Assembly (NCBI RefSeq): GCF_964355755.1 | Contig: NC_092670.1 | Coordinates: forward strand, 6,438,201 to 6,502,200 | DNA length: 64,000 bases | Direction: 5' to 3' | DNA from: Antedon mediterranea | Taxonomy: Eukaryota > Animalia > Echinodermata | Part shown: piece after piece, positions 788-44,960 of the stretch | Layout of the letters: each line of letters starts with the position of its first letter | How positions within the stretch are numbered: the first letter of the stretch is position 1 | Position numbers and translations under genes: made by a program | The notes under the pieces: model-generated | Database searches by the model: none | What the model was told of the DNA's origin: nothing | What the model saw: only the letters and a program-made list of their open reading frames with translations

Positions 788-1598
788 CCTTATATTTCGG
801 TGTATAAGTCGCACTTTTGACACGCAAATTTGACCTCTAAATTAAGGGTGCGTCTTATACACCGAACATAAATGCCTCACTACACAGAGTGTACATATCG
901 TCACCTCGTTGGCTAGGCTAGGCCTAGCTACAGTGTACTAACGTAATGGCAACCTGCTTCTGCCTAGTTTTCAAGGCATTTTAGCGTGATGTTATACTAA
1001 ATATGATGAAAAGATTTGTTTATTATGGAGCTGTTTTAGGCGCTCCGATAAAATTTCATTTGTAAACGTTTACGATTGGAATAGTATTTATTTATAGTTA
1101 TACGCACGATCGCCGACCGCCGTACCCCCAGCGCAAGCCCTTCTTGGCGGCCACATCTTGTACGGTATTCGACTAGTATATTCTCCAGATGATTATAGCA
1201 TGGACCTAGCGTACACACTTCTCGAATAAATAGATACTAATCGAATACGATTGTCCGTGAAAACGTGCGCCCTCTTGAAATGATCGAGCGTTACACACAC
1301 GGTCATGCACTCGATGTTGCGGGTGCGAAACTCATGAATAACAAGTTAGAAACAACTTGTTGAGGCTGGCCGCGGCCGAGCCTAGGTAAGAAAAACCCTA
1401 AATAAAGGACGCTGTTGTAGATATAACAAAATATATTATTACAATAAGATTGATTACAATATAAAAAAAACATTGTTTTGATGAAATATAAGGTGCGTCT
1501 TATACATCGACGATATAAAAAATACCGATATTTTACTCTCAGTTAGGGGGTGCGTCTTATACACAGGTGCGACTTATACAGTACACCGAAATATACGG
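788..1598. mobile_element. Tc1/mariner (Tc2-like) MITE, copy 1
   Basis: TIR CC(G/T)TATATTTCGGTGTATAAGTCGCAC with TA on both sides; internal GGTGCGTCTTATACAC repeats; homologous to 7677-8531. CCGTA termini with TA TSD are typical of Tc2-type elements. Confidence 0.9.
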
Positions 1599-2225
1599 TA
1601 CAGTATTTGCCAAACAACATTTTTATGATTTAATTTATTTTCTGTTTTTGCACTGTCAAGTTAGTACAGGAATATTTTAAAAATGTGAATTTCATGGTGG
1701 TTTGTTTCAGCAAATGGTTCATTAGGCAAGGAGATTTAAATATTGTCTGCTACATAGCTGCACGCTACACCAGAGATCAGATCACAATGGGGTCAACAAT
1801 ATTTGATTGTTTAAACTGTTTTGGTTGCTAAATGTCCATTATGTTATTGTTAATGATGGATATTTAAGTGTTTACCACGCATGATGTTAATCCTACTGTA
1901 GCAATCAGAGGGGGTGGGTGCTACTGTATACAGTAAGACAAACAGTAGGGTTGATGCTAGCTATGAATTTGTGTGGGTGCTTAAAATTATGAGTGAGTAC
2001 AGTGTTGAAAGGTTTTAAGAGTTTGGGTTGTGCTTGAAAAAACATGGTATGCATACAGACTATTCCATAAGAGTACAGTACACATTGCAATTTAAACATT
2101 GTTTTTGGTAAATTAGAATGTTTTACAGTAGGTCACCTTTTGAGATTTTAACAATTGCAAATTTATTGTTTGTCATGTTTCAACCAGGCAATAAACAGTC
2201 CTACCAAAACTTTCTAAGGAACATG

Positions 2226-2945
2226 GGGCCTGTTCGTAGGGGTTGAAAATACCAGCTTATTCCCGATTTCCGTTCGCGTGATCCAATTAACTTTTGCCTC
2301 AGGCTACAAAAAATTCGAGGTAAAATGTTCACCAAATTTGCAGGTTATTTCAGCGTTAATCCAATTATACTAGGCCTTCGAGGATAATAAATCTCCGATA
2401 GAGGCAATGTGTCAAATTTTGACAAACGTTCGCTGCCTAGGCCCGTTATTTCTCCTACGAAGCTCTTCCATACACGCTTCGAGAGCGATCGTCAGCTGGT
2501 GCTGTCCTTGTTGGTGTAGACAGACCGCTTAGTAGGCCTAGCTGGTCGGGGAGCCGCTGGTCGGTGGTGTTTCCGTCGTGTAACATTGGGCTCAAATTCT
2601 TCGTCAATGAGTAAAATAATGGTCGTCAGGAGAAGGCATATTTCGGCAGGATTATCGGCGTTAAGAGGCATAAGGTTTGTCGCAAGGATAAGCAGTGTAA
2701 AAGGTAGTAAGTAATTGTTATTGTAAAGAAAGATCGCGAGTAAAAAATATACAACACGAAACTAGCGTGCGAAAATGGGGTCGTAGGTTGTAAAGACAAC
2801 TGACCTTAAAACGTAATTTCCGGTTTGTGATTCGTCGATTAAGCATTTAAGCGGTTAAATATTTCAAGTACGAACAACGCTCAATTTATAACCCGAGGCA
2901 TGGGTGAAATTAAGCGCTTATTTTAACCACCGTACGAACACGACC
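2226..2945. mobile_element. PIF/Harbinger-like non-autonomous element
   Basis: Imperfect TIR GGGCCTGTTCGTA...TACGAACACGACC, 3-bp TSD ATG on both sides, CpG-rich interior. Confidence 0.7.
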
Positions 2946-3179
2946 ATGGAGCCTGATACCGACAATAGTCTCCTCCTGTCAACAATAGTCTCCTCCTGTC
3001 ACATGTGTTAATTGGTTCACTTGATGTGGCAACTTAAATTCTATAAGTCCAACCTCAAGCAACAAACAAATTAGCATTATATTATAATGATGTATCTTCA
3101 CAGTACAGTGTATGTTACAGGGTGGAGTTTGATTACTTCCTGAGACTAACTAACTGTTGTATTTTATTGTTTATTTTAG

Positions 3180-3237
3180 AATGGTCTGTCATCTAACATA
3201 GTGGATTGTTGACATTGAGTTGTGTAAGAAGTCAAAG
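3180..3237 (+). other. candidate 5' UTR exon of the WIPF gene
   Basis: Pyrimidine tract with TTTTAG acceptor and AAG/GTATAG donor; no coding similarity. Confidence 0.25.
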
Positions 3238-3713
3238 GTATAGTAAGCTTTATAAATATTGTTATGTATTTGAGCACAGTAAATGTAAAGATACTGTAGG
3301 GGAATTTATTACGATACACTATATTCGGCTTATCATTTCTCTTTTCTTTACGGCATTGTTATAAGACAGCAACACAATTTCCAAAAATGGGATGAATAAC
3401 GTTTCCTTGTATCCTTGTAATTTGGTCGCATTAAATTTACAGACCAATGTGTGCGTTTTCTTATGCTTTATAGTCCTAACTAACAGTACACTATTTTTAA
3501 AATGAAATGCATCATTTTAATGCATTAAACATACTGTACAGTACTTAAACAAGTTTATAAAGGTCAGCGAAATCCTCTGAACAGCGGCTATTTTTTTAAC
3601 CAATTCCCTACTCGTCTCGAATAAAGAACTGGTTTATAATATCCAAGAAAAACCACCTCCAAAATTAAAAGCGCATCCACCTCGAAACCATGCCGATATT
3701 TTTGGCTCTTTAA

Positions 3714-4311
3714 AGGCCAGGTACTGGCAAAAAATTTCTATTGATCATACATTCCAATAATTATCGATCTATAGTTTCCCCTATGTTTCATAATTTTTGG
3801 GATTTTATTTGTGTTAACAGGAGCTTTTTGAAAATTAGCACTTTCATATCAGTGGGGGGATAGTTCAAATTACACAGTAAAATCTCTATTCTTTTGTACA
3901 CAAATTTTGAAAATAGAGAGGCATTTTAAAAAGCTATGAAAAATAAACTGTGTGGTAAAAAATGTTATCAGATGACTAAATATAGGTAATATAACTTGAA
4001 TTTTACATTTCTGGTATTTTTATTCAACTTCAGAATTTTATTTTCATGCTATAGCAAAAATTATCCACCGTATATCCACCATCTTTTTTTCACCTTCTAG
4101 GGAGTCACCAGACATGTTATTACATTATGCTAACTACCTAACTACTGAAAAAAAGTCTTTCCTGTTTTTTTTTGGCAGAATTTTGCCAAATTTTGTATTT
4201 GACCATATTAGGGAAAATTCATGGTTTTTCGTCTTGATTTCTGTTACAAATATTTGATTTATGTACAATTAACCAGATATTATATTTAAAATTCATGCCT
4301 GTACCTGAGCT
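3714..4311. mobile_element. TTAA-targeting (Kolobok-like) non-autonomous DNA transposon
   Basis: TTAA|AGGCCAGGTACTGGC...GCCTGTACCTGAGCT|TTAA; a copy of one end lies at 56432-56570. Confidence 0.7.
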
Positions 4312-4778
4312 TTAAGTATGGTAACCAGTGCCCCTGCCTTAATCGCTCGGCGATTTTACTCGCATTGTGGTTGCAACATATTTCTCATATAATTCAAAGG
4401 AATCCAACAAAGTCTCTCCTTATTTGTACAGTAGATGTGTAGGTGTTAACTATACAGTAGGTTAAAATATATTACACTTTGTATTCATGGAAAAGTATAG
4501 GGGTTTCCTCTGAATAGAGGTACAGTATCGGTCTTTCTATAAGTATTTAATACACAATACGTATGTTGTTATTGTTAATTAATGTTTTCAACAGTGAGGA
4601 AATGTAAGAGTTTGAAATAACCAAATGTATATAAAGGGACCTTTGTTATATATTGTTTACAAGTTAGTATTATTATTAAGGCAGTTTGATATTAGTATTA
4701 CAGGAAGTGATTATTAGTATTGTGTACTGTACTGTAGTTATTTTCTTTTAAAAAAAATTTAGTTTTGTTTAAATTTAT

Positions 4779-5446
4779 AAACTAGAAAGCCACTCCGAGA
4801 GTGCATACCTCTGCCTACTGTAAAATTCTCCTACATAAGATTTCTCCGGTAAAAAAAAAAATATATATATTTGTGTGTGTCTTAATGCTGTTTGTGATTT
4901 AGGCTAATTTCACTACAAGCATGTGTATGCGAGTTTGGTGTAATGGTTATGTAACAAGCCTTTCAATTAACAATAGCTTCAGTTGACTAACAATAGAACA
5001 GCAACGCGAAAATCAAACGAGTAAATTTGAAAAGAAAATAGGTTTCTTAAACTACTGGGGCATAAAAAAACTTGAACATTAAATCAAATTATGTTTTAAA
5101 ATTACAAATCACAAATTATAACTCTTGCCTCTTGTACAAAAATGAAGTTTTTTGGACAAGTAGTTCTCGAGAAAATGCAATTTCAGTATACTTGTTACTT
5201 TAAGACTGCTCGCCGGCTTTTGAAAAATTCTGTCCTATCTTTTAACACTAGCAGGTCTGAAAAGTATACTAAAAAGTGGTCCAGAATTGGGACAATGGTC
5301 CCAAAATTTAATGGAATGGTCCTTGACCACATATCTATCTGTATATTCATTTTGGTAAAGATCTTGTAATTACTTTTTGAGTAATCCTGCAAACAAACAA
5401 ACAAACACACGCTACCGATTACATATACCTCCTTGGCGGAGGTAAA
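4779..5446 (-). mobile_element. Helentron-associated non-autonomous element (HINE/DINE-1-like)
   Basis: Minus strand starts TTACCTCCGCCAAGGAGGTA, then a (GTTT)n microsatellite; 3' end has subterminal IR GGCAGAGGTA, hairpin CACTCTCGGAGTG and CTAGTT. Confidence 0.75.
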
Positions 5447-7676
5447 TTATTATTGGTTTTAAACAAGAGCACAACAATCAATATACTTAACTTAGGATTC
5501 AAGAACTATCTACATTTGCTCGCCACTGCTGGACGGCAAGGAAATCAAAATATTACAGAAACCAAGTATTGTCGATGATATTAACAATAACATTATTAAT
5601 ATAATTTTTTTAATGTAAAAATATGTGACTAATAATAATATTAAGGCAATTAATATTAAAACGGGAACTTTGGCATTTTTTGCTTATTGTCACCCAAGCT
5701 ACAGTACAACAAGTTGTCTACTTTACCATGACAATCTGTTGCACTGCTTTTCAAAAAGAATTTTATTTTTAGGCAGAAATGTGTTTTAAAACACTAGTAC
5801 TACTGTATACTAGTACAGATATAAATTCAAATTTGATAATTATATGAATGATACGATAGTACAGTATTTATTGTAATTTGATTGAAAACACAAACTCAAA
5901 TCACAACATTCACGGTCAGTGTAAAGTAAGCTAAATGTGAACTTCAATATAGTTACGGTAAAGTTATTTCCTGGTTTCAGCCTATACTGTAGACTAACCA
6001 CTTACTACTACTGTACTACAGTAGGTAGTTTTAGTTTACAATGGTTATCTGTTTGCTAGTCTTTTGTCGCTAACAGTAACACTTACAGTTTTTGTATGCT
6101 GCTTCATTGATCATGATTATAACTTGCATTGATGTTCTGACTGCGATTAAATTCAAAATCTTCTTCTTTTCATTCAAGGCAAAACACAAAGTACTGATAC
6201 CAATGAACCTAATAATTGGTAATTCATTGTGGTATATAACTTTTTTGTATTTTGCATTTAAATAATAAAACTTCCATTTACAGATACTTAACTTCGTAGG
6301 AATACGATAGCTTTTCCACAATCTCCATGGACTTGTTCCCAGTTGGTATTGTTTTGAGAAAGCAATATCCAGGAGACAATATTTTGCAATGAGTGTTCTG
6401 TACTGTGCTCTATTAACAATGTAACAAGCATATGACATGAATCGACCGACGGCTAAACTTCTTAATTGAAGGACTATTTACTCATGTTTCATAAAGGAGT
6501 TTAAGGAGTTGATTCCTCAAATTTCATTTATTAGCAAATTCAAACTTTCAAAAGGTTCTATGATGTTCTAGGATTTTTGAATGCAATTTTGATGACTTAA
6601 ATTTTTGATTGTACAACATGGTTACTGTACAGTTAGTGATACAAGTCGTACTGTTACAATTCTGAAAATAGAAACTACATTGTACTTTTGTTATATTCAG
6701 TTATGATCTTCTGTTGATACATCAATATACAGTAGTACTGATAGCGAGTTGTATTGAAAGGAAATATTAAAAACCTTTCTAATCCAGTCTAGGCTGCTAT
6801 TTTACCATCATGTACTCTAGACAAGTCAAGATGTGAGAGGATTATTGTACCACAAGAAATCTAATAACAATTATAATCTTTAGAATCAAAAAGGCTTGGA
6901 CATTGAAACAATCTGTGCCTTGACAAAAAATTGTCATTGATTCAAAATCAGAACAACGATTTCATGTGAATTAATAAAATTTTAACGACATCCATTGAAG
7001 TTAGGTTTACAGTTTTTGGCCGAAAACACTTTATTGAATGCTATCAGCACTTTATTCCATTACCAGTAATCACAAATAAATATTTGATAATGTTGAATAT
7101 TGAATTCAAGTGTGCATACTGTACATTAAATAGCGTTTGTTCAGATTAGTTTTTTCTAAAATTTAGATGACATTAATTTCATCTTCAATCCGTGATGAAT
7201 TGGACATTGCTGTTAGTGTTAAAATTCTTACAGTAGTTGACGTCAGTAAGCAATCCGTTAAGGATGATCTGTTTAGAAGAAGTGCTTTACTTAGTTACAA
7301 GTACTCACTTAGTATTAAGTTCCATTTTTGATAACATTTTTAATGTTCCAGATAGCATTAATTTATTATAGAAACTAGTTTCCTTGGGAGGAGGTTTGTA
7401 GAACAAAGCTAAATGGTCGTCGTACTGTACTGTACAAATCTGTTCAAAATATTATTTAGTAAGAGTAAGACCACATGAATCAGAAAACATTTTTGTTATT
7501 GTTTGTTTATCTCAATAACAATAATTTTATGGGATGTCTAGCAATGTAGAATCCTAGAAATTACGTTCTTGCATACAGTACTCTCTATATGATGAAATTT
7601 AGGTGTAGTAGTGCGAGTAGGACTACAGTAGCATATCAAATGGTCAATTTCTGCGGCCATATTCCTTGTTGACCTA

Positions 7677-8531
7677 CCGTATATTTCGGTGTATAAGTCG
7701 CACTTTTGACACGCAAATTTGACCTCTAAATTAAGGGTGCGTCTTATACACCGAACATAAATGCCTCACCACACAGATTGTACATACTTTATAGGCCTAG
7801 GCTATCGTCACCTCGTTTGCTAGGCCTGAGTAGGCTAGTCCTAGCTACAGTAACTAACTAACGTAACGGCAACCTGCTTCTGCCTAGGCCTAGTTTTCAA
7901 GTTATTTTAGCATGATGTTATACTAAATATGATGAAAAGATTTGTTCATTATGGCGCTCCGATAAAATTTCATTTGTAAACGTTTACGTCGTACGATTGG
8001 AATTTACTGTATTTATACAGTAGTTATACGCACGATCGCCGTACCCCAAGCGCAAGCCCTTCTTTTGGTGGCACATGGTGTACGGTATTCAACTAGTATA
8101 TTCTCCAGGTGATTATAGCATGGACCTAGCGTACACACTTCTCGGATACATAGATACTAATCGAATACGATTGTCCGTGAAAACGTGCGCCCTCTCGAAA
8201 TGATCGAGCGAGGCTAGCCCACACACGTGCGTGTTACACACACGGTCATGCACTCGATGTTGCGGCGAAACTCATGAATAACAAGTTAGAAAGAACTTGT
8301 TGAGGCTGGGCGCGGCCGAGCCTAGGTAAGAAAAAACCTAAATAAAGGACGCCGTTGTAGATATAACAAAATATATTATTACAATAATATTGATTACAAT
8401 TTAAAAAAACATTGTTTTGATGAAATATAAGGTGCGTCTTATACATCGACGATATAAAAAATACCGATATTTTACTCTCAGTTGGGGGTGCGTCTTATAC
8501 ACAGGTGCGACTTGTACACCGAAATATACGG
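7677..8531. mobile_element. Tc2-like MITE, copy 2
   Basis: TA|CCGTATATTTCGGTGTATAAGTCGCAC...GTGCGACTTGTACACCGAAATATACGG|TA; colinear with 788-1598. Confidence 0.92.
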
Positions 8532-8925
8532 TACATGCAAAATTGAACTGTGTTGGAGTCCACTTTTATCCCATCTATTAAAGATAACGATTTAAAAGCA
8601 ACAGTCCATTTCACAGTATTCTTGTTGGCTTCTCAACTTGATGTGGTCACTTGAATGAAGTATAAAAAGCTATTGCAACAATCACGGGTGAGCTGATTAA
8701 GGTACCTGTACTGTAAAGTCAAGCAAAGGCTTACAGTACAGTTAGTACTCTGCCTGTACAGTAGCGTCAAAATGTTCAAGGTACACCGGTAAAAGCATAG
8801 GAAATTACTGGTAACAGTTTTCCTGTAATTGTTTCTTTCTACCTGTTTAGTTTTAGCATATATTACATGACAATTCATTATGGAGTATTCTTCTACCTAC
8901 CTTTATGACAATTAAATTACAATTA

Positions 8926-9091
8926 GGCCTTGTCTGCACTATCAAACTTTTATGTGAAAAATTTGATGTGCTGATATTGACATCATGATATCATATCACT
9001 ATCAGTATCATACAGTATTTAGGGATATCACTACCATATTTGGGACATCACATTTATTTTGTCTAACTAGTTTGATAGTGTTGACAGAGCT
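8926..9091. mobile_element. Harbinger/Tourist-like MITE (about 160-bp family)
   Basis: Degenerate TIR of family AGCTCTGTCTACACTATCAAAC; seven family members seen in this window. Confidence 0.8.
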
Positions 9092-9869
9092 TTTGAACTG
9101 CTCATTTGTCCCTTCATTTACATCATACTGTAAAGTTTCATCTAACAATTGTTCATTCACATATTGTGATTAAACTTAAATGGTGCAAGTCACTACTAAT
9201 ACCATGAATTTAGCTTGACTGCTTTGAATTTATTCTCGATTAGTACATTATATGATTATTTGAATTGATAAAATCAGCATGATCGGATAAGTCAAGCAAA
9301 CCCACTCGTCTACCCAGCCGATTACAGTTACTGTTTAAGCTTACTGTATGTGTTTGGCTTATTTCGCAGTGTTATCATTAAATATGCATCATTCATTACA
9401 GATAACAATTGAATTATTTTTATTGATGAATTAATAATTTGTAGCTCTGTAAAATTACTACTACTGTATTGGGAGTTGATAAGAGTGATTGTTCATCTTA
9501 CTAAATGAACTTTGAACCTCGTACAGGCTTACAGTTTACACAAAGAATATCCATTCTAAGATCTTTATACAGTCTCTCCTCCCATGAGTAGTACAGTCTG
9601 AGATATTAAACCTGATGGAGAGAGATTAGTTCGCTAATATCTTATAGGTGACCAAACCTTCTAATCTATTGTCTTTCCTGTATGGCCAACTAAGCAATAT
9701 ATTCTCAACAATAGATTAATAATTAGTACTTGAATGTAATATTCTCAACATTTTAGTGCGAACTTTGTTCCAATAAGACTTAATATACTATACAATTAAA
9801 AATCTCACAAAAAAAATAAAATATTGAATGCAATTGTTTCCAACACCACTCCTATCCCTTATCCATGTT

Positions 9870-10100
9870 AGCTTCATGTTTGTTATTATCCTGGCCATTT
9901 TTTGAATCAATCATGTATGGAAACATACTTCCATAATGCAGCTAATATACAGTAGTATTAATCAGCGTTGTGTCTTGACCTACATAACCGGGTACCCATT
10001 TATACACCTAGGTGGAGAGAGGCAATGTAAGGATACAAGCCATGTGGCAAAAGTTGAATTCAAACTCACAATCTTAGTAATCCAATAAGTATGCAGTAAA
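9870..10100 (-). mobile_element. degenerate tRNA-derived SINE with conserved central (Nin/Deu-type) domain
   Basis: Minus strand reads a degenerate B-box GAGTTTGAATT, then TGCCTCTCTCCACCTAGGTGTATAAATGGGTACC, a motif typical of invertebrate SINE central domains. Confidence 0.6.
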
Positions 10101-10827
10101 CAATTTAAAAGGGAAAGATAGAAACTGGAAAGATAGAAAACAGCAATAATAATTTTAATAAAAAGTGCAAATGTACTATAGTATATTGTCAATAGATTAA
10201 AATTACATTTACATAAAATGAATTGATTGTAAAGTATTATGACTAAAGGGAAGTAGTCATAACACCTAAACCAGTACTGTACCATTAAAAGCATACTGGT
10301 ATAAACAAATACATCCATTTTTAAAGTGTTTGATCTTGATACAACTCTCTTATTAATGCTGTAAATTAATTTCACTTAATAACCTATACTTGTTGAGTAG
10401 GTGGTTTGCATAGTTGCCGATGATGATTTTATTTTCTAATAGAGATGTTTATTTTGATATGCACTTTAAAGTCACAAACGCTGACATGTTGTCAATTCAA
10501 CGCTCTCCCAGCTAAATTATTTTAACTGTGGTGATGTACAGTATTGTGGTTGGAAATACTGTATAGTATGGCTATGATTTGTCCATTTTGTTTGGTCATT
10601 GTCTTGAAATCCAGCTTTACAACATTTATTTACTGTACCTACAATGAAAAATACTGCCCTCAATAGTTTCTTATGATTCTACAATGAGTACGATTCTAGA
10701 CGTCCTTTCACCATTTCCATCAGTCTATTCATGAATTGTGGCACATGCGGCATTCCATACATTCAATTGTGTTTTAGTCGGTGGCAGTTTCAGTTAAAGA
10801 TTATACAGTTTTCTATTTATCTCACAG

Positions 10828-10857
10828 GATGTGTAATGACCCACAGGAAGTAAATCA
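10828..10857 (+). other. candidate 30-nt 5' UTR exon of the WIPF gene
   Basis: TTTTCTATTTATCTCACAG acceptor and TCA/GTAAGA donor. Confidence 0.25.
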
Positions 10858-11851
10858 GTAAGAATTTGACCCAGAGGAAATATTAAACATGTTGGATTAC
10901 ATGTCTGTATTGATAGTGTAATTACAGTTTCTACAATCCAAAACTATTTTCACATTGATTACTAAATGTTTTAAGTTTCAATTAACATGTAACTGTATTT
11001 ATACATTTTTAGAAATAGAGAGTGAAATGCGAAGATAATTAGACATAAATAGCATAACATATATTACAGTATTGAGTAAAATATTATTTAAGCTAAGATA
11101 TGCTGATGGTCACACTTTTAAAATAAATTGAGATAATATCTTTTCACATTTCAACTCATAATATTTTAATCTGAAAAGCTATGTTATTGTTTTCACACAA
11201 TTTTATTGAATTCTGGCTGAAGATGTTGTCTACAGTATCATTCTCTGATATTATTGGTTAGTCCAATACAAGAGTGATCTCACACACTCGGGCAACGACC
11301 CGGAATATCTCAAATTTACCTCATAACACTGAATGTTTGTCAGTTGACGAAAATTACGATGACATAACCACCAACCGATTTTATTTTGAGCAATAATTAG
11401 GATGCAACATTGTCATTGTTTACTAACAACCATTTTTCGAAGAATAGGCCTACAGTATTATTCTTTATATACAGGTAGTTACTGTTTAGAAATAATATAA
11501 TATAATATAATACAAATAAACAAAACCAATACCAGATAAATTATTCTATACATAAATATATTAATATTTGTTATAGTCTACTGTATTGTACAATAGGGTC
11601 AATTATAATTTGAAATAGTATACCTAGGTAGTAGTATCCCTATTAAGGGCATACTTTTGAGAGCCAACAAAAGTGTCTCCTTATTACAAGCATCCCATGC
11701 TTAGGGGTGTCCCCTGAATTGGAATTGGCTGTTACGTATTGTTAAAAAAATATTTCCCCTCATTTCTTTCATGGAAAACCCTACCTAGGGTGTCCCAAAG
11801 GAGGGGTTCTAGTGATACTAGTTAAATTACATTGCAACACCCTGTACTCGA

Positions 11852-12052
11852 AGCCTTGTCTTTAAGGCGCGCGAGTGCGATCACTCACTTAACACTCCTC
11901 CTAAACTGCCCTTGAGGAGTGCAATTTACAACACGCTTAATTTTGGTAAACTTCTACTACACACCAAAATATAAAGAGCACACCTACAGCACCCCTGAAT
12001 ATATTAAGGAGCGCAATTTGTAGCACACCTATAATTTTCAAAAGACAAGGCC
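11852..12052. mobile_element. about 200-bp MITE with 9-bp TSD (Mutator-like)
   Basis: TIR (A/G)GCCTTGTCTTT...AAAGACAAGGCC; flanks TGTACTCGA and TGTACTTGA. Confidence 0.65.
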
Positions 12053-12561
12053 TGTACTTGAGCAAGTGTACATACAGTATGAGTATGACAACTGTTCAAA
12101 AGACAAGGCCTGTACTTGAGCAAGTGTACATACAGTATGAGTATGACAACTGTTCAAAAGACAAGGCCTGTACTTGAGCAATTGTACATACAGTATGAGT
12201 ATGACAACTGTTCAAAAGACAAGGCCTGTACTTGAGCAAGTGTACATACAGTATGAGTATGACAACTGTTCAAAAGACAAGGCCTGTACTTGAGCAAGTG
12301 TACATACAGTATGAGTATGACAACTGTTCAAAAGACAAGGCCTGTACTTGAGCAAGTGTACATACAGTATGAGTATGACAACTGTTCAAAAGACAAGGCC
12401 TGTACTTGAGCAATTGTACATACAGTATGAGTATGACAACTGTTCAAAAGACAAGGCCTGTACTTGAGCAATTGTACATACAGTATGAGTATGACAACTG
12501 TTCAAAAGACAAGGCCTGTACTTGAGCAATTGTACATACAGTATGAGTATGACAACTGTTC
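12037..12561. repeat. 58-bp tandem repeat, 9 copies
   Basis: Unit TTCAAAAGACAAGGCCTGTACTTGAGCAA(G/T)TGTACATACAGTATGAGTATGACAACTG with one variable position. Confidence 0.97.
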
Positions 12562-13468: not shown

Positions 13469-13652
13469 ATGCCACCACCTCCTCCGCCCCCTCCTGGACC
13501 TCCTCCGCCCCCAACTTTCAAGTCGGCAAATACAACTCCCCCTGTATTAAATAAAAATGAAGCAAAAAGCAGAAATAATTTATTAGGTGAAATACACAAA
13601 GGAGCAAGATTGAAAAAGACGGTGACAGTGGACAAAAGTAAACCAGTGTTAG
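13469..13652 (+). CDS. WIPF: WIPF coding exon 1 (poly-Pro and WH2)
   Basis: Acceptor TTTCAG ends 13405; MPPPPPPPPGPPPPPTFKSANT...LKKTVTVDKSKPVL; donor G/GTAGGG. Confidence 0.93.
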
Positions 13653-33500: not shown

Positions 33501-36500
33501 TGCCTCGCACAAATATTTGGCATGCCTCGCTGCCTCGCACTTTGTCAACACTCCAAAAAAAAACGAAGTTACAGGCCTACACTGCAAGCAAATTAAATTT
33601 TCGCATGAGAATTTTAATGGCCATATGCTCGTAAAATGTGTAACAAAAGTTTTTTTGTATCTATAATTAATGTAATTCTTGCAAATGTTCATATTTAATC
33701 AGTTTAAGATGGAATTGTTGTTGTTATAGTTTTTTTTATTTTTGATTTCATGTACTTTTACTATTATATATTTATATTTTAGTCTACTCTGTAGCAATGT
33801 TAGTATACTTATAGGCATACGGGGGTCACGACTTAAAGTTCAGTGAACTTACTGTGACCTCCATTCACCCACATTTAATATGTTGTGTAAATTATATATA
33901 TATATATATAAGTGAGTGGAAAAAATAAATAAACGAAACGAAACCAAACCAGTACTACTACTTCTACTAGGCTCTAGGCCTACTGAGCATTAAGTCATTG
34001 TTGTTGTTTGCAGCTACAATAATATTTAAGACCTCCTTACCTAGGGAGTGTTGACAAAGTGCGAGGCAGCGAGGCACGCGAGGCATGCCAAATATTTGTG
34101 CGAGGTATCATTTTATCATTTCCAAAAGTGCGAGGCGTGCGAGGCATATAGTTTACAATTTCAAAAAGGTGCGAGGCATATCTTAACATGCTATTATGCT
34201 ATATTATAGGCCTAATAATCAATCGATACAAGCGTATCTAAATAGATTCGTGTATACACTCATCATGTTGTTTATTTTTATGTAACGATTGTTTTTTCAT
34301 TCAAGTCATATCGTGTCAAATTTTACTTTTACAAAAGTGCCCAAACTACGGTTCAAAAATCTGAACGACAGTCTTCAACTTTCGATAAACAATAATTGTT
34401 ATAGCGACACACTCATCAAATTACTGCAATGTTTGTTGGCATTTCGAGCGTGTTCACTCACATGTCTCTCGAACATAGCAGAGTGAAAATAATATTTTGT
34501 CACACCCCTGCGCCTAGATCCGGTAGACCCGAGAGATGGAAAATCCATCTTTACTATTTAGCAGGTAGCGGAATGATTCAGCCCTCAGCTCAGAGGATTG
34601 TGGTGCATTCCCCTCCTATAGCACGTGGTTTCAGCAGCAACGCACAGACTTCTCTCTGAGCGGCGTGCCAAAGACATTTTTGACATTCCATTCTCTAGGA
34701 ACAACACGTGTACCTCTCTCGCAAATAAGGTGAACAGCGATTGCCAGGACAAGTTCAATAACTGGCGGTGAATAAAAGGTAACTGATATGCCGATCCAAT
34801 AACATGCCGCAAAGAAAAAAATTGCGACAGAATTCTGGAGCGCGTGTGAAAAAAGACTTACGTCCGACAATTGTAATACTAGGCCTAAAATTAAACTTTA
34901 GCTAATATGCTTAGCCCTAACCTAGATAAGAGGCCTATGTAGAAAATAATTTAATCAATTTTGATATAATAATAATTGGTGTAATATTTAATAATGATAC
35001 ACTATTCCTGTTTTAGTAAGCTAGGTATATTATTATTACGAACGATTTTTATTTATTGTTGTCCATGTACGTACTAATAAACCTGGCGCTAGTTTCCTTC
35101 GCTTGTATTTTTACTCCAAATTTGATAACTAACTTTATCGTGTGAATACCACACCTTAGAAGTATACCTCATGAGTACTTTAATGAAAGAATCACATAAA
35201 AAGTAACAAATAAATCCTTAAATTAATGATTTTACAGGCGTGTTTCTCGCACACTGTTCGCGAATTTCACTTATTCAATGTTCAATATTTTTGTTTCTAT
35301 GGAGCGCCAAAAGAGCAACGATAAAACTCAGTGGAATGCGTCAATTTCTCATGCATTTATTGGTGAAAAACACGTTTCATTTCAATATATTTGTTAATTT
35401 GTCAATAAAAATGTTGTAATATGTTACTGCTGATACTGTTCTGTTTTCAAAGAATAATAATCGATCCTAAATCAACATCACTACCTAGTCTAGACCTAGG
35501 ACATCCTACTAAGGATATTATGATGAATTTTTCTATTTTATTCTTTAAAAGGTTAACGAAACCGTGTACATTATCAACAGTAACATTTTTCCTTACTGAC
35601 AGTGACAAAATCTATTGAAATTGTACTTGATTTTCACCAAATAATGCGTTAAATATAAATGGATTCTACAGAGTTTTTAGCCCTCTAATTAATTTTGCTC
35701 TTTTGGCGTTCCATAGAAACCAAAATATTGAACATTGAGTGTGCGAAATGCGAGAAAAACAACGTCTGTAAAATCACCAATTTAATGGATTTATTGTTAC
35801 TTTTATGTGATTTTTCTTCATTAAAGTAGGCCTAGTAATTCTAAGCTGTGGTATTCAGGATAAAGTTGGTTAAAATACAAGGCAGGTGCAAAAGGAAACT
35901 AGCCTAGCGGGCCTAGGCCTAGGCTACTTCAATTTCGGTGATTTCCTGCCTTGCAATTTTGAGAAATGATAAAATGATGCCTCGCATTTTTTGATGATGG
36001 TAAAACGATGCCTCGCATAAATTTCTGACTTGCCTCGCATGCCTTCCCTGCCTCGCACTTTGTTACTACCCTTACCTAGGCTAGGTCTAGCCTAGCTATG
36101 CCACAGTACTTACAGTTTTTCGTGTGGTCCATTGGCTACACTTGCAGCAAGGTTCCGTTTTGCTATCAGAGAAAATGAAATTCTGGCTGGGTTTGAAACA
36201 TTTTCTTTGAGATCCATGTGGTGGGCCAAAATGTAAAAAAAAAAAAAATTTTAATGACAATGTTAGTAGGGAGGTAGAGGCTCAAGTTGTGTAGGCCTAG
36301 CCTACTTAGCTAGGGCTTCTTCATAGCTAGGGCCTAGCCTAGGGGTGTGAGATGAAATCGGTCGCGTTTGAAAATCGGTCGCGATAAAATCAACTTCTGG
36401 TATTTTGTATGGCGCGCCGCTACAGCTATACTTTTGGTGATATCGGTCGCGCTATTTTGTATGGATCGAGCGGGATGCATCCTAGAGCGGGATATACATT

Positions 36501-38636
36501 TTTCGTTTATATAGATTTAATTGATATTTGTTAGGAACTATATTATTTATATGGATATTTTTTACTTGGTTAATAAATATTTATTATCAATCATTAAATT
36601 AATTTTTTTTTGTATTTCACAGGTCTCGGAGACTAGACTGTGTCTTTTCAAAATTGCCATTTCTAAACACGTTTAAATATTATATTAGGCATATTGTTAT
36701 ATTAGGCATATAATAATTTACCTCTATTTATATGTACTGTAATTAATATATTCTATAGAGAATAAACGTCTGTCGTGTCTTTTATTATGCAAACAATTAC
36801 GTATGGTTTTAGGATATTAATAAAATATATAGATAATATGCCGTTATAAATCATTCTACCGGCCTACAGTAGGACTATGATGTACAATGATAGATGTGAG
36901 AATAATAATGTATGGATAAAGGACACGATTCTCAAAAGAGGTAATCTGCACCGATATTTAAACATTTAGATTTACGAACGGCGTATGAATGTGAGACACT
37001 GAGTTGCAGTTGCAACTTAATTATTTACATTAATTGATTATTATAAATGAAGAAATAAAAGATATTTAAATTAAAATCTATGGTATAGTATCACCGACAT
37101 ATATGTAAATTATATACTGTATAAATCATACTGTCAAATTATAGAAACAGTACTTTATTCGGAATTATTATGGATAAGCAAGCCTGTGAGCTACAGCGAC
37201 TTTAATTGCTTTTGCTTATCCTTGCCTCCTTAGATTTCCACGTGTCTTTATTTTGTTACCTATGTTTTAATATTTTGATTTTAGAGGCTAAATAAAGAAT
37301 GAATGAATGAATGAACATGATCTGGGGTTTATTTCAGTAACTCGCCTTTTAACCATCCACATTATAATGATCATTTTACTAAAAACTATTTTAAACATTA
37401 GAAATAAAAATATACACGTGATTTGCCTCAACAATAATCATTATAAATACATAATAGAAAAATAACGCTTAAAAAAGAACGACGTTTCGACTCCATCATG
37501 GGGTAATTTTCAAGTCCAATGAATAAAATTTAAATAAACAACTAATTAAATAACAAAAGCCAAGGGTCAAAGTTTAAATAACAAAAGACCTATAATCATT
37601 ACACTTAATATTATCCTACATAACGGATAGAAATAAAAATAAGGTGATCGAATAGTATATTGTTAACGACATGGATATGATATAATCTGCCACAGTATGC
37701 ATAAGTATAAAAATAAATGGATACGTGGCTTTACGGGCTATATTGTAAAAATTATTGTTTTAAAATAAATTGTTCTCTTTTACGTAGGTCTAGTTGTTTG
37801 CATAATAAAAGACACGACAGACGTATATTCTCTATATAATATATTAATTACAGTACATATAAATAGAGGTAAATTATTATATGCCTAATATAACATTATG
37901 CCTAATATAATATTTAAACTTGTTTAGAAAATGGCCATTTTGAAAAGACACAGTCCTTCTCCGAGACCTGTGAAATACAAAAAAAAAAATAATTTAATGA
38001 TTGATAATAAATATTTATTAACCAATTCAAAAATATCCACATAGTATAGGCCTAAATAATAATATAATAGGCCTAGTTCCTAAAAAATATCAATTAAATC
38101 TATATAAACGAAAAATGTATATCCCGCTGTAGCATGCATCCCGCTCGGTCCATACACAAAGAAGCGCGACCGATTTCAAACGCGACCGATATCATCAAAA
38201 GTATAGCTCTAGCTAGGCCTAGCGGCGCGCCATACAAATTACCGGAAGTTGATTTTATCACGACCGATTTCATCGTAAACCAGCCAAGGCCGCCTCCCTA
38301 CTACTGTAGGCCTATCTACTCTAACCTACTAGCCTAGGCCTAGCGCTACGTACCTACATAGACTAGAGGCCTACCACACTGCACTACTGCCGGCCTAGCC
38401 TACCTACTACTAGCTACTAGGCCTAGGCAGGCTAGTCCTAGCTAGTAGGCCTCGTAGTCCTAGCTATAGGCGCGCCTATCTTCTTAGTTAGTAAATTCAA
38501 ATTAAATACATTTACCAGCTGTACCAAACGTCAATCCTTCATACTGATTTATGTACTCTTCTTCTAATTTCTTGTTATTTATAATCTGTTGTTTTTTAAT
38601 TTCTTTAATACTACTTTTGGAGCGTCGATTAGCCAT
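27423..38636 (-). CDS. LRRC46: leucine-rich repeat-containing protein 46-like gene, spliced, about 295 aa
   Basis: complement join(38636-38516,36204-36114,31523-31415,29557-29401,29011-28942,27982-27810,27589-27423); GT-AG introns, phases 1,2,0,1,2,1 consistent. Motifs LIAKRNL, VRLDRENI..IDNLE, NLYLQQNMIQRIENL, LRFLVLSGNKI, FLDLSENLI, PSLIILNMSGNEC..NYR and an acidic SSSDEEE tract match LRRC46. Confidence 0.9.
27810..27982 (-). CDS. LRRC46: LRRC46 exon 6
   Basis: RPNTIKSLRNLKQLDNVEI...SSSDEEETEDEE...; G/GTAAGA donor. Confidence 0.85.
28071..28234. mobile_element. Harbinger/Tourist-like MITE
   Basis: Same family as 17188-17346; TAA TSD on both sides. Confidence 0.85.
28942..29011 (-). CDS. 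LRRC46: LRRC46 exon 5
   Basis: DELPPSLIILNMSGNECTKENNYR; TTTCTAG acceptor, AG/GTAGTA donor. Confidence 0.88.
29401..29557 (-). CDS. LRRC46: LRRC46 exon 4 (LRRs)
   Basis: NMIQRIENLESLCHLRFLVLSGNKIEKVKNLHSIKSLMFLDLSENLIVHLDI; overlaps ORF 29342-29554. Confidence 0.92.
29583..30075 (-). mobile_element. 5'-truncated, frameshifted LINE 3' end (CR1/L2-group)
   Basis: FQTYDSVQVHDTRNKNN / TNIGQRGIFYEGPRIWNNI resembles the C-terminus of the RT ORF at 57861-58982; AATAAA plus (TTA)n tail. Confidence 0.75.
30214..30460 (+). mobile_element. 5S rRNA-derived SINE (SINE3-type) or 5S pseudogene with unrelated body
   Basis: ACGGCCTTACCATG...AAGCAACGTCGGGC...TGGATGGGAGACC..CTGGGAATATCGGGAGCTG matches 5S rRNA with an internal deletion; about 150 bp of non-5S body follows. 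Confidence 0.7.
30468..31334. mobile_element. non-autonomous TIR element with palindromic subterminal repeats
   Basis: Clusters of TTGCGCAATTTCAAATTGCGCAA-like motifs at 30545-30667 and 31155-31298; weak terminal IR ACAGTC...GACTGT. Confidence 0.55.
31415..31523 (-). CDS. LRRC46: LRRC46 exon 3
   Basis: LIESLTKISHVRLDRENIEHIDNLEMLGPVTNLYLQQ; CACAG acceptor, CAG/GTGAGT donor. Confidence 0.92.
31576..33554 (-). mobile_element. about 2-kb non-autonomous Mutator-like element, copy A
   Basis: Ends GGTAGTAACAAAGTGCGAGGCA...TGCCTCGCACTTTGTCAACACTCC; many TGCGAGGCA subterminal repeats; flanks AAAAAAAAG and AAAAAAAAA; reverse complement of 34045-36070. Confidence 0.85.
34045..36070 (+). mobile_element. 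about 2-kb non-autonomous Mutator-like element, copy B
   Basis: GG...CC termini; perfect 9-bp TSD CTTACCTAG at 34036-34044 and 36071-36079. Confidence 0.88.
36114..36204 (-). CDS. LRRC46: LRRC46 exon 2
   Basis: ENVSNPARISFSLIAKRNLAASVANGPHEK; CT/GTAAGT donor. The acceptor is the first AG after a TACTAAC and poly-T tract; an in-frame ATG at 36217 is an alternative start. Confidence 0.82.
36344..38281. mobile_element. about 1.9-kb foldback/Mutator-like element with about 460-bp TIRs
   Basis: 36344-36800 is the reverse complement of about 37790-38281; 8-bp flanks AGCCTAGG and AGCCAAGG. Confidence 0.85.
38516..38636 (-). CDS. LRRC46: probable LRRC46 exon 1
   Basis: MANRRSKSSIKEIKKQQIINNKKLEEEYINQYEGLTFGTA with G/GTAAAT donor, phase 1 matching the exon 2 acceptor; lies next to a CpG-rich promoter-like patch. 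Confidence 0.62.
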
Positions 38637-38800
38637 GACAACTGTTACAGTAATAACGCCCTCTATAACTGATTTACTTACCAGAGCCATATAAAGAGTT
38701 ACGACATTGAAAATTAGAAGCCATTTTTGTGTCAAAGAATTCGCACGCTGAGGGCGCGCGCGTCTCTTTTGTATAGCGTTTTCCTGTAGTTCCATGCATT
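38628..38800 (-). promoter_or_regulatory. putative LRRC46 promoter region with X-box-like motif
   Basis: GTTGTCATGGCTAAT (minus strand, 38642-38628) resembles the RFX X-box GTTGCCATGGCAAC; CpG cluster CGCACGCTGAGGGCGCGCGCG. Confidence 0.35.
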
Positions 38801-41800
38801 ATTTTTAGATTTTTTTGTCAATGAAATAACGCTTAGATTCCGTTTTTATTTTAGTAATTTATTTTATTACTTGTATTAATTTGGTAACATATATATATTG
38901 TGTCTATAATAACAAAAGAATAAATGCTAGGGCCTACATGCAAGTCAGGATACATCAAAGCATGAACCAATACAAAAAACACACAAATTCACCCCTCTTT
39001 TTATACATTATGCTCTCCGTGTGTTTTTGACACAAACTTTCAGAGACTCGTTCATCATTTCATTTGTAATAATTTGCCTTTATTATTTTAATATTGTTCA
39101 TACCCTATTCAATATATTAACAAATATATCCACGACACTTTATTATTTTATTTAGTCATCAAAGCATGCATTATGAATTGAAAATATTACATAATTGTTA
39201 TTAATAGGACGTAGTTATGGGATGTTTCGTTCCAAAATCAATCAATCGAACTTTATAATGTACTAGCGCACGCGCGCGCAATATTCTTTGCAGCAAGTAC
39301 TTCTGTACGCTGTGCACATCGATATTTCACCGTAAAATGTGTAATTACATTTTTTTAAATATAAGAAAAAGTTTAAAGTATTTTCTTGCTCCTGTACTTT
39401 ACATGCAATAACGGAGACAAGTTTGATACAAATTGATCTGCATATCACGTGACTATAATCCAATGTCGTAACTCTTTATATATATGGCTCTGCCCCCCCC
39501 CCCCCCACACGTCGTGCACCCCCTCTATCTCTCTCTAGCATGCAGCTCTCCGCGTTCGCGCTCTGCGACGGAAATTATCCTTAGGCTATTTTATGTATAC
39601 CCCTTTATGATGAATGGATTAACCCACAACTTTTCACAAAATTGTACCACACTTGTCAGCGACCTCCTCTCTCTGTGTTTTATCAATATTTAAAGCATGC
39701 TGGTTATAAAAAAACCCATGTTGTCAAATTTCTAAAAATAATTCATCTTTGACCTCTGACCTCAATTTGAATATTTTGACCCATTGAAACAAAATGGCCA
39801 TATCTTTGCAACTAATAATAGTGTCAAATTATTTGGAAGATGCATATTAATATTCGTTTTAATGGAACAGTCCAAAAATGGCCAGAAGTATGATTTTGGT
39901 ATTTTTAACCTTTGACCTACATATCATAACTCGGTAGCTAACAGTTGGACAAACTTTAAAAAGGGCTCAAATTAATCTGAAGGTATAATATGTTTCTATT
40001 TAGTCTAATAAGAACTTTTTCAAGATTGCGATAGTAAAACCGAATTTTCTCACAATCGCTTATCAAAACAATAACAACAAAAAAGGCATAGGCTTATAGG
40101 GCCTACAAACACCTCACTATTCAACTTTTGTTGTGAAGTGCTGATCAAAATGAGTTAATAACATACGTTGTAGTCTGATGACACCAGTCTTTTTGTAGTG
40201 TGCCATTTGTAATTAAAATAAAGTATTTAGAGTTGTGAACAATTTAAGTGGATGGCGCCTGACATTACAAAACATTCATATCCAATGATAAAATGAAAGG
40301 AAGTAGGCCTAGCCCCCTATATATGCTTCAATTCAAAATCAATAATTCATTTCACGGTCTCGGTCGCAAACTTGTTATTCACCCATAATATGACTATTAT
40401 TCGTTTTAACTGAAATCTATATTGACAATTTCTTTTTCACAAAATTTAAATTTCCTTTGAAATTTTATAATTACAATTCCAAACACCGTCGTTGCTAAAC
40501 ACCCAATGTGACATAAACAGCGAGTTTTTAGAAATGAATTAATTTATAGAAATCTCACGAAGAGAACACAGCTGATTTTCCGGAGATGAATATTAATTAT
40601 AGAATTCCTGGCGCTCTTTATTCATTATTTTCAACATATTGATTAATAAAGAGTAATAGAATAAATAAGAGTTACTAATATTTATGTTTCAAATAACAAG
40701 CAATAACATGAGAAACATGAGTCTTGCCTGATTATGAGTAATCATCTTATTATCTATTTATTGTGAAAATTGTTAATAAATGCTGAATAAATACTTCTGA
40801 TATTAAGTTCAGTTTTTTCCTATGAACTTTTTACTTTGTCTTTAAAAAAATATATCTATCTATTTATTTTTTAATAGATTGGGAAAATATAATGTATATC
40901 GGTCTTGTGGTTTAGGAGGACCCAACGAACACCATGGGTTAGTGTTCAATTATACAGTAATATGATGAATATAATATGTAGTAGGGCCTAGCCTAAAATG
41001 AGGTTAAAAAAGAAGAAAAAGCTGAAAAAGAAATAAAGATTAAAACTTATTATACAATAATAACGAAAAAACAAAGAACCATTCAAGGTATAACGGTACA
41101 ACAATTTCCGTAAGGCGTCAGGATATGACAATTACCAAAACAAAGATTCTGAATAAATACTTTTAATTAGATTTACCCAAACTATTAATACAATTTCCTC
41201 AAGTTAAATGGGGAGTAATTGGGCCTATTATTGTTAACACTCTCTTATACACTTGTTAAAACGACCTAAGTTTAAAGAACCAGAGTGCATCTTTCGAAGC
41301 AGTAATAGTTAGGCCTACCTGTACTGGCCCATCTCAGTCCCTGCCACTGTGGGTGGTGATGAGCGCCGTTGGTCATGGTCAATTATTTTCATTTTAATAT
41401 CAACTTGAGAGCTGCCTAATTAAATATTGATAATTTTATATATCATTGAATCATGTTTTTTGAATGAAGTGAAATCAGCGAATTTCTATTCATCAAAGGA
41501 CAAATACAGAGATTGTTGGTACATAAACTGATAAAAAGACACCCCTGCTATTATGTGTTATGAATATATTTTGATACAAATCTCTAAAATGTACAAGTCT
41601 AAAGCTCTGTCTACACTATGAAACTAGTTAGGACAAAAAAAAAATGTGTAAGCGAAGAATATCATCAAGTAATACAAGAAGAAACTGACATCTCGAATTA
41701 AATTTACATTTACATTGATGAACTTAAGATAAACAACAACAACTTTTTTACTATAGGCCTACATTGAAATTAAATTCGCTTTCTCTCATTCATTATGAAC

Positions 41801-42687
41801 GCGTAGCTTTGTCCTTAAAATGCTATTTCTAGTTTACCTACGTAATACGACTTTCAGATTTTCGAATATACAGATGTAGACTATAATTATAGAGTATATA
41901 AGCAATTTAATGTTTATTGTGCGAGCGTTTTGATGTGTATCCGGCCTATTTAGACCTATCCATATCCTTCCCGTGCACTTCAGTTAGTCATCTTCCTTGG
42001 CGTATAATGTGACTGATTGAAATGTATATTGGGCTTGAAAAAAGGTAAGTGCGGCTATAAACTTATACACATTTTTAATTGGATCATTACGATGGTTGAG
42101 AAAACATTGTGACGGTACAGGGCGTGGAAAAGTTTTGTTTTTTTCTGGTTTACAAAAAGCAATTATAACTGTAAATTATTAGTTAGGTAGGCAGGCAGGT
42201 AAACAAGTATTTATATACTGTAGTATACAGTTTGGAATCCCATTAATTCTCCTGAAAGGATGTAGGCCTATAGCGTACAGTTGTTCAGGTCTAGGCCTAA
42301 TTTTGTTCAAACGTTCGTACAACAGCAGTTGTGCTCAGTAAACAATAGTCAGAATCTTCAGCAGCAATTAATATAAGCTGGTAGGTTATGATCACAGTTG
42401 ACATAAACCATAATGGCAGTATTAAAGGCTCGCATTTTAGCTTGTAAAAACAATCACCTTGGTGGAAAAGTACGCATTAGAAATCTTTATTCGGGCCTAT
42501 GATTCATATTATTAACAGGTAGATTTAGTCATTTATACTGGTTGATGTTAGGAGATACACTTAATTATTATATTATTCGTATATTATCACATATTATACT
42601 ATTACTGTTTTGTATATTGGTATCAGATAAAGTTCAGTAACCAGGTTGCACCTAAGTTGTTCCTCATGCTCATAAATCGAGGTGGTA

Positions 42688-42830
42688 AGATCTGTCTAGA
42701 CTATCAAACTTTATGTGACAAAAAATGTGATGTGATGTGTCCAAATATGGTAGTGGTATGCCCAAAGATGGTAGTGATATGACATCATCATGTCCATATA
42801 TGGGCAGTTTGATAGTGTAGACACAAGACT
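42688..42830. mobile_element. Harbinger/Tourist-like MITE (a partial copy also starts at 41603)
   Basis: Same TIR and internal CCCAAATATGGTAGTG-like repeats. Confidence 0.8.
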
Positions 42831-43549
42831 TTATAAGTGTCATATTAATGTAAAATAATCTACTTACAATGTAGTAAAACATCCAGCTAATGTACAGTAG
42901 AAACACCAACAGCTTATGTATAGTAAAATAAAACCACCACCTAATAGGCCTAAACCTGATTTTAACCACCTGGTGTAACCCTGTTTACTAATAAAATTGA
43001 GTTAGAAAATTAGTTATTGACAAATTAAAGCGAACTTAGGTTCAATATTTGCCCCAAATAGGAGTGTTTTCCGATCGTGGTATACACTGTCTAATGGATG
43101 TCCATCTTGAAAAATAGCCGCACACAATAATACAAAGATGTTCCGCATTTACCTAATATCTCCTTCTACGATAATTGTTTTTAGTAGCTGAAACCGTTTG
43201 AACAGCTCGAGTAGGCCTACATCATCATAATGTTGAAGACAGACCGATTTCTTAAAAAATACTATTGATAGATAAAAATATAAACGTTGTAGTGCTGTAT
43301 CGTTACACTAGCTTACTATTTCAATCGACTATGAGACAGTTTTAAAAAATCAAATCGCAAATTTATAGGCCTAACCATGAACAAAATATTTCGTTTCGAG
43401 TGGATAAAGAATATATTTAAAAATTGTTCTTCTTTGTATCCATCCTCTTCTCCATCCCTCAACCCTATGTTACATACAAAGCAAAAATTGTGGATTATAA
43501 TTGTGTTTTAAATTAAGTTTCTATTATATAATTCATTTATTTAAAACAG

Positions 43550-43861
43550 GTGGGCTCGTTTTGTAAGTAAAAAAAGACCGGCATGCCCCCGGCATGACCA
43601 TGGCTATTCGATTTTTAAAAATTATTTTATGTGCGCTTTCATTGGGGATACCTGGTGTGTACGACGCTGGTTACGTACGTAAATGCGTGACGCGTGACAG
43701 TGGAAAACTGTTTACACTACGAAAGTGTAAACGACAGCCGCTCGATCTTACAGCAGTCAGATATTCTCACATGATCTTCTCCCTCTAGGCTTTGACCAGG
43801 CAAGAACCGATGTTTCAACCTGGTAAGGCCATAAACAGGACATTAAATCCGTTCAAAATAG
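43550..43861 (+). other. candidate non-coding 5' exon or promoter region, possibly of the NXPE gene
   Basis: CpG-rich patch with donors TG/GTAAGG (43823) and AG/GTAAAT (43862), followed by a TAGGCCTA cluster; another strong donor AAG/GTAAGT lies near 42045. Confidence 0.3.
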
Positions 43862-44129
43862 GTAAATATTTTTTTCCTGTAACATGTGAGTGAATGGCCT
43901 ATTTGGTACATCATAATACAGTACTAGCCTAGGCCTACTAGCCTAGTAACTACTGATACTAATACCTTCAACCGTACTAGACTAGGGCCTACTACTCTAG
44001 GTTTAGGCCTGGCCCTAGCTAGCTAGTAGTAGTAGTAGGCTAGGCCTATACTACTACTCCTACTACTAATAGTTAACTACTATTAGTATTAGGCCTAGTG
44101 TTTAGCCTAGGCCTAATACCATTGATATG

Positions 44130-44960
44130 ACTTGGCAAAGTGTTATTAATTATCATTCCTAATTATTGTTTCAGCGCCACATAATAGTCCCAATATTCCG
44201 CATGCGCGGCCTACGTACTAACACGAACAAAAAAAACTATTGTCCAAAATAAAAACGTAAATTGTTATTTCAATTTACAAGATGTATTGTTATACATGGT
44301 TTAGTACGAATTATTGCTTAACTAAACATCTTTAACTAACTATATATATATGCTATTCATTGTATATTCATCTGGTTTCGAATACCCCAATAGGCCTAAT
44401 TATTAATAATTATACTATGTCCCAATATTCCCCGCGTGCGCCCAAGGCCTACTAACACGAAAAAACTATTGTTCAAAATGGAAACGCAAATTATTATTAG
44501 TTCAATGTATGAGATAGATGTTTTGTTATACACTGTTTATAACGAATTATTCTTTCCATTTCCTTTTTTCTAACGATTTTTTTTAGTCCAATTTTAAGAT
44601 ACAGTAGATGTTTATTATAATTTTATACTGTTATCAAACGAATTATATTTTATCTAACGATATTCCATTGTTTGTAAATATTCATCTGGTTTTGAATACT
44701 ATAAATAATTTTTGACATTAATCCAATTTACAGGATAGCCAGTATATTTTTCATTATAATTTTATCGACATTTACCCTAGACCTTGAACGAATTATGTTT
44801 CAACTAACGATGTTTCATTGTAGGCCTAATTGTTCATCTGGTTTCGAAGAGTACTCCAATTATTAGTTTAATTTACAAGTAGCCTTTATCACTTTATTGA
44901 TATTGAGAGCGAATTTTAATTTAAATAATTAGCCTATATTCCATTGTAAATATTATAATA
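44130..44960. repeat. degenerate tandem repeat of about 180-250-bp units
   Basis: Recurrent ACGAATTAT, TATTC(C)ATTG and TTCATCTGGTTT(C/T)GAA blocks. Confidence 0.7.

What the first reader, a model, noticed from the sequence alone, without database searches (positions are those of the whole stretch)
1577..44828. Pervasive TA-site micro-insertions: TACAGTA and TAGGCCTA appear as inserted scars in paralog comparisons
Seen: homologous repeat copies differ by TA becoming TA-CAG-TA or TA-GGCC-TA. CAG type: MITE TIR at 1577-1583 (GACTTATACAGTACACC vs GACTTATACACC); 8016-8022 vs about 1095; 9011-9017; 28174-28180 (CCATACAGTATATGG vs CCATATATGG near 42794); and inside a 5S head at 30247-30253 (AAGTTACAGTAAGCAAC vs AAGTTAAGCAAC). 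GGCC type: 7885-7892 vs about 965; 38047, 38068 and 38214 in one TIR arm but absent from the other; reciprocal insertions at 44391 and 44821 in sister tandem units. Known: Tc1/mariner excision leaves TA + 3 terminal nt + TA (TACAGTA/TACTGTA). TACCGTA/TACGGTA, also scattered here (e.g. 18064, 51053), would be the equivalent for the CCG-ended Tc2-like MITEs in this window. Inference: this DNA is heavily marked by insertion-excision footprints. TAGGCCTA, TAGGCTA and TAGCCTA would point to a GGC(C)-ended TA-targeting element or another TA-specific insertion process; I cannot find its source in the window and know of no description of it.
Basis: partly seen in the sequence, partly recalled or inferred. 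Interest (0 to 1): 0.85.

Follow-up and report, generated by a model that had tools for sequence, protein, structure and literature searches.

The report
Two segregated transposon scar types
This animal DNA carries many 5-6-base insertions at TA sites, of two kinds (TACAGTA and TAGGCCTA) that sit in different stretches; they are likely scars left where cut-and-paste jumping genes landed and left again, but the jumping gene that would make TAGGCCTA was not found.

Summary
Confirmed. After masking repeats, TAGGCCTA occurs 38 times (1.1 expected), TACAGTA/TACTGTA 91 (16.9) and TAGGCTA/TAGCCTA 30 (8.2). The long form is the derived one: it interrupts a 5S head, one TIR arm, and sites that other family copies lack. 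The excess is about 138 scars in 58 kb, about 1.3% of the DNA. The CAG type is the canonical Sleeping Beauty-type footprint. The GGCC type fits excision of a GG[G/C]-ended, TA-targeting element, likely pogo/Fot-like, but no donor lies in the window and no genome is held. Corrections: the 7885 example could equally be a tandem duplication, and CCG scars are unsupported. Added here: CAG scars crowd the 5' part of a WH2/verprolin-like gene, while GGCC scars crowd a CpG-rich 31-48 kb block and form nests (KS p 1e-4 after collapsing clusters; one window only). The scan has already noted TAGGCCTA scars in other genomes. My ten paper searches found no printed description of it. New variant of a known kind.

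The parts
1577..1583 (.). CAG scar (TACAGTA) inside the right TIR of a CCG-ended MITE copy
   Evidence: absent from the left TIR and from the sister copy
1599..1605 (.). CAG scar starting at the right TA target duplication of the same MITE
7677..8531 (.). TA|CCG...CGG|TA MITE (Passer/Tc2-like ends); the only TA-flanked TIR element found; carries compound GG-type insertions at 7785 (18 nt) and 7821 (10 nt) and the ambiguous 6-nt one at 7882-7893
   Evidence: a Passer row with CCG ends in PMC7386202 supplement 3
2600..13400 (+). CAG-scar-rich block (44 scars on 1106 TA; 3 GGCC), likely the 5' intron region of a WH2 + polyproline (verprolin/WIP-like) gene; boundaries chosen after seeing the data
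28174..28180 (.). CAG scar in a high-copy 160-bp TIR element
   Evidence: absent from three other copies
30247..30253 (.). CAG scar inside a 5S-derived head
   Evidence: absent from the 5S gene at 49824-49944
30500..48500 (.). GGCC-scar-rich block (28 TAGGCCTA and 16 TAGSCTA on 1729 TA after masking; CpG o/e 1.01); boundaries chosen after seeing the data
36256..36343 (.). scar nest, left half, likely split from the right half by the element 36344-38281
   Evidence: the 8-bp target duplication is itself scar sequence
36344..38281 (.). GG...CC-ended TIR element with an 8-bp target duplication (1 mismatch); not the donor; right arm carries insertions at about 37787, 38047, 38068 and 38209-38221
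38282..38480 (.). scar nest, right half (TAGGCCTA, TAGCCTA, TACTGTA, CTA/TAG runs)
37440..37603 (.). site where other family copies show either plain TATA or TAGGCCTA at the same TA; the window copy carries an unrelated 156-bp insertion there
   Evidence: tables 5 and 5c
43914..44116 (.). scar nest
44391..44398 (.). GGCC scar present in one degenerate tandem unit only
44821..44828 (.). GGCC scar (within an 8-nt insertion) in the sister unit only

Best explanation
The TACAGTA/TACTGTA and TAGGCCTA/TAGGCTA/TAGCCTA words are net insertions at TA sites, likely left by germline excision of TA-targeting cut-and-paste transposons of the IS630-Tc1/mariner-pogo group and repair of the break. SHOWN: the excess, the insertion polarity, both orientations about equally common, clustering, and spatial separation of the two kinds. 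INFERRED: an element inserts at TA and duplicates it, is cut out a few bases inside its own tips, and end-joining keeps those bases. CAG...CTG ends with 3-nt overhangs give CAG or CTG. GG[G/C]-ended elements give GGCC, in one of two ways that my data cannot separate: both 2-nt GG overhangs are kept and joined (as Tc1 CA ends give TACATGTA), or 3-nt GGC overhangs pair by their GC. Partial products are GGC/GCC and GGGCC. Each scar adds a new TA, so repeated visits would build nests. The GG donor is inferred to be pogo/Fot-like and to favour CpG-rich, probably unmethylated DNA; it was not seen.
For: EXCESS: only TA-flanked cores stand out beyond simple repeats. ORIENTATION: 51:40 (p 0.29) and 15:15. 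POLARITY: 5S gene, TIR symmetry and three sister copies. In sequencing-run contigs, the decayed 6-nt scar at 37787-37793 is missing from all family depth in 4 of 4 runs; the 10-nt insert at 38209 is missing in 154.8 of 158.7 depth in run X1; one X1 copy across 37980-38190 has 25 gap letters, matching 11+12+2. At 37445, other copies show the plain site (depth 4666) or GGCCTA-filled sites (2172 and 1683). In other animal DNA selected for the word, 3 of 16 indels were TA to TAGGCCTA-type, one of them TAGGGCCTA. NESTING: 19 of 68 GG-type words lie within 12 bp of another, against a mean of 1.9 and a maximum of 12 in 2000 draws. LITERATURE: canonical CAG footprints and the 2-4-nt rule (PMC6943129); TACATGTA as a rare Tc1 footprint (PMC3520976); all three echinoderm pogo rows begin CAG; a Fot-like row with GGGGT ends and TA duplication exists (Entamoeba); Passer prefers genes and regulatory regions and leaves 0-4-bp footprints (PMC9976928).
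Against: No TA|GG...CC|TA and no convincing TA|CAG...CTG|TA element in the window. No transposase family in 58 of 87 window ORFs or in 133 of 304 ORFs of the metagenome loci. No site was seen with the element still in place. In the pogo table rows I saw, no animal GG-ended element appeared and most GG-ended Fot rows have TAA or TAAA duplications (GGG places 13-55 of 99 not seen). For the 38209 insert, only 10 of 49,855 depth in run X2 and about 39% in X3 and X5 showed the deletion, so polarity there rests mainly on X1. The only single-copy indel shown in a nest (7 nt at 38407) is a tandem duplication, not a scar. Scar words account for only 6 of the 56 paralog indels of 3 nt or more. The one TA-flanked MITE that is present (CCG ends) has left no demonstrable scars.
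Confidence: 0.8

Rival explanations
1. The GG-type insertions come from another TA-specific source: a Harbinger- or ISL2EU-like element that duplicates TA instead of TWA or AT, or a non-transposon process that adds GG/CC at a TA break (telomerase-like or templated fill-in).
For: No donor was found. The rice Harbinger TIR consensus GG(G/C)CC resembles the cores GGCC and GGGCC (PMC4423477 passage). ISL2EU TIRs start with GG (PMC4482050).
Against: ISL2EU duplicates AT and Harbinger TWA. TTAGGCCTTA and TAAGGCCTAA are 0 and 0, and T before the scar is depleted (15 of 76). Telomere words are not in excess: TTAGGG 14 vs 21.8, TAGGGTTA 0 vs 2.1; TAGGGCCCTA 0.
Confidence: 0.1
2. Slippage and short tandem duplication, perhaps with selection for a palindromic protein-binding site, produce and spread the words without any transposon.
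For: 7885 is an exact duplication of GCCTAG. The 38407 indel is a 7-nt duplication. Nests hold CTA/TAG runs. A similar word, TACATGTA, was read as a binding site in Phytophthora (PMC3520976). GGCC words track CpG-rich DNA.
Against: At 30247, 28174, 1577, 38068, 44391 and 37445 the inserted letters have no adjacent template. Selection would not insert fixed words into decayed transposons and a 5S pseudogene head. The CAG core equals a known transposon tip.
Confidence: 0.07
3. The long form is ancestral and the short form arises by deletion between the two TA dinucleotides.
For: TA is a 2-bp microhomology, and a pairwise alignment alone cannot polarise an indel.
Against: The 5S gene, the opposite TIR and the majority of family copies carry the short form. 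Deletion cannot create a 35-fold excess.
Confidence: 0.03

Closest known systems
Sleeping Beauty canonical excision footprints TACAGTA/TACTGTA (PMC6943129, passages; bioRxiv 10.1101/659086, abstract part and passages)
   Same: Identical 7-bp words, both orientations, TA on each side. The minor SB products TACTA and TAGTA resemble the runs inside the nests.
   Different: Here they are natural, inherited and dense (about 74 in excess in 58 kb). The donor family was not seen.
Tc1 footprint TACATGTA of C. elegans (PMC3520976, one passage citing earlier work)
   Same: TA + 4-nt palindrome + TA, read as both 2-nt tips kept: the direct analogue of TAGGCCTA.
   Different: The core is GGCC, it is the main product rather than a rare one, and TACATGTA itself is not enriched here (1 vs 3.0).
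pogo superfamily, Fot/Fot-like and Passer families (PMC7386202, passages and parts of supplement 3; PMC9976928, passages)
   Same: GG-starting TIRs occur in Fot and Fot-like elements, in one seen row with a TA duplication. Passer has CCG ends like the window's MITE, leaves 0-4-bp footprints and prefers regulatory regions.
   Different: The GG-ended rows I saw are from fungi, red algae, oomycetes and an amoeba, mostly with TAA or TAAA duplications. No footprints were described for them in what I read.
ISL2EU and PIF/Harbinger (PMC4482050 and PMC4423477, passages)
   Same: GG-starting TIRs.
   Different: Target duplications AT and TWA, which these scars do not show.

Membership tests
Tc1/mariner-pogo excision footprint | core flanked by a duplicated TA | tested here: met
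Tc1/mariner-pogo excision footprint | net insertion relative to the empty TA site | tested here: met
   5S gene, TIR symmetry, family majority
Tc1/mariner-pogo excision footprint | both orientations of the asymmetric core about equally frequent | tested here: met
   51:40 and 15:15
Tc1/mariner-pogo excision footprint (CAG type) | core equals the terminal 2-4 nt of a transposon present in the genome | tested here: inconclusive
   matches known CAG ends, including 3 of 3 echinoderm pogo rows, but no such element in the window and no genome held
Tc1/mariner-pogo excision footprint (GGCC type) | core equals the terminal nt of a TA-flanked GG-ended element in the genome | tested here: inconclusive
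   none in the window or in 117 loci from other animals and sources; the window's GG-ended elements have 8-bp duplications; no genome held
Tc1/mariner-pogo excision footprint | one site seen empty, occupied by the element, and scarred | not testable with these tools
   empty and scarred forms seen together at 37445; an occupied form was not shown, and most rows of the answer were cut
pogo/Fot-like donor | DDE_1 (DD35D-type) transposase between the GG TIRs | tested here: inconclusive
   no transposase hit in 58 of 87 window ORFs or 133 of 304 locus ORFs; far too little DNA to exclude one
ISL2EU footprint | AT target duplication | tested here: not met
   the duplication is TA; AT-x-AT shows no GG-core excess
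PIF/Harbinger footprint | TWA 3-bp target duplication | tested here: not met
   TTAGGCCTTA 0, TAAGGCCTAA 0

The most novel reading that the evidence does not exclude
Excision scars are a major, self-feeding class of small mutation in these animals, and each transposon family writes its own tag into its own chromatin compartment: an undescribed GG-ended group marks unmethylated regulatory DNA and builds nests on its own scars, while CAG-ended families mark gene introns. The two words could then be read genome-wide as a fossil map of germline chromatin and of millions of past jumps, without any experiment.
Probability: 0.3. Interest if true: 0.72.

Novelty: new variant of a known kind. Interest (0 to 1): 0.45.

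Why it matters
Footprints are known from excision assays, one site at a time. Here they would make up about 1.3% of the non-repeated DNA of the window (my arithmetic), so excision would be a main source of small insertions and of the most over-represented words in this genome. That matters for motif discovery, where such palindromes get read as binding sites, and for indel mutation models. If the separation of the two scar kinds holds genome-wide, it gives natural target-preference maps for two transposase groups. The GGCC scar also predicts a findable animal transposase with GG tips.

Tried and rejected
(1) Whole genome: none is held, so no genome-wide counts or donor search. (2) Donor in the window: TA-flanked TIR searches gave only the CCG MITE; the 4 GG candidate pairs lie inside a duplicated 2-kb element and the 2 CAG pairs score at chance level. 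(3) The 156-bp insertion at 37443-37600, first suspected as donor, has a roughly 10-bp direct repeat at its flanks and no GG tips. (4) The GG-ended elements 36344-38281 and 34045-36071 have 8-bp duplications, so they are not donors; calling them Merlin-like rests on recall. (5) ISL2EU, my first guess, was dropped because its duplication is AT. (6) CCG scars: no support. (7) Telomere-type addition: no support. (8) Allelic scars: one single-copy contig at 30004-30598 has 5 gap letters, but its row was among the 395 not shown; the one allelic-looking indel shown in the nest is a duplication. (9) Metagenome scan for triple scars: 118 stretches reported, 117 in the file; no donor and no transposase, no similarity to the window; their counts are biased by the selection pattern. 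(10) No scar in 336 TA of five long ORFs, partly circular because ORFs are chosen for lacking stops, so I give it no weight. (11) CAG density against CpG o/e was not significant. (12) PMC9179366 and PMC7325037 (passages) added nothing on ends. Paper searches with no description of natural TAGGCCTA scars among the listed titles and abstract starts: 30 of 283 listed; 24 of 27; two searches were for family features. Subscription journals, Repbase Reports and unseen supplements may hold a description.
Full report
Setting. The window is animal DNA of about 33% G+C. It holds a WH2 plus polyproline gene (Pfam WH2 at 13442-13711; proline-rich ORF 14745-15764), an LRR exon, NXPE-family exons, a reverse-transcriptase fragment, one 5S gene and many non-coding repeats. 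Earlier scan notes call the genome a feather star; I did not test this. No whole genome is held.

Noticed in passing
31575-33554 and 34045-36071: Two inverted copies (95% alike) of a 2-kb non-coding element with GG...CC ends; the second has an exact 8-bp target duplication, the first A-run flanks. Each holds a nested ~750-bp inverted-repeat element. It looks like one 4.5-kb foldback but is two insertions.
   Followed up: partly
51351-53763: 2.4-kb TIR element with GGGC-starting ends and AT on both sides, the pattern described for ISL2EU; carries an internal ~380-bp tandem repeat.
   Followed up: no
17187-17347, 28066-28238, 8923-9096, 19889-20045, 42686-42823, 60052-60404: Very high-copy ~160-bp TIR element with TTAA-like flanks and an internal 21-bp repeat (depth in the millions in run X2 against about 280 for single-copy contigs). 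Kolobok-like by recall only.
   Followed up: no
48448-50787: Nested inverted repeats around the single intact 5S rRNA gene at 49824-49944.
   Followed up: no
38689-39481: High-copy ~800-bp TIR element flanked by TA-repeat runs; family copies vary by ATAT at its left end.
   Followed up: no
5-570 and 12037-12561: Two tandem arrays (37-bp and 58-bp units) whose unit contains TACAGTA, so a possible scar was amplified with the array.
   Followed up: partly
7985-7995: A 7-nt TA-CGTCG-TA indel in the MITE pair; not an enriched word and possibly a local duplication.
   Followed up: no
L046, L052, L070, L076: Metagenome loci rich in TAGGCTA/TAGCCTA; in L046 and L076 runs of several hundred bases are built almost wholly of TAGG/CCTA-type words, extreme versions of the nests or telomere-like arrays.
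   Followed up: no
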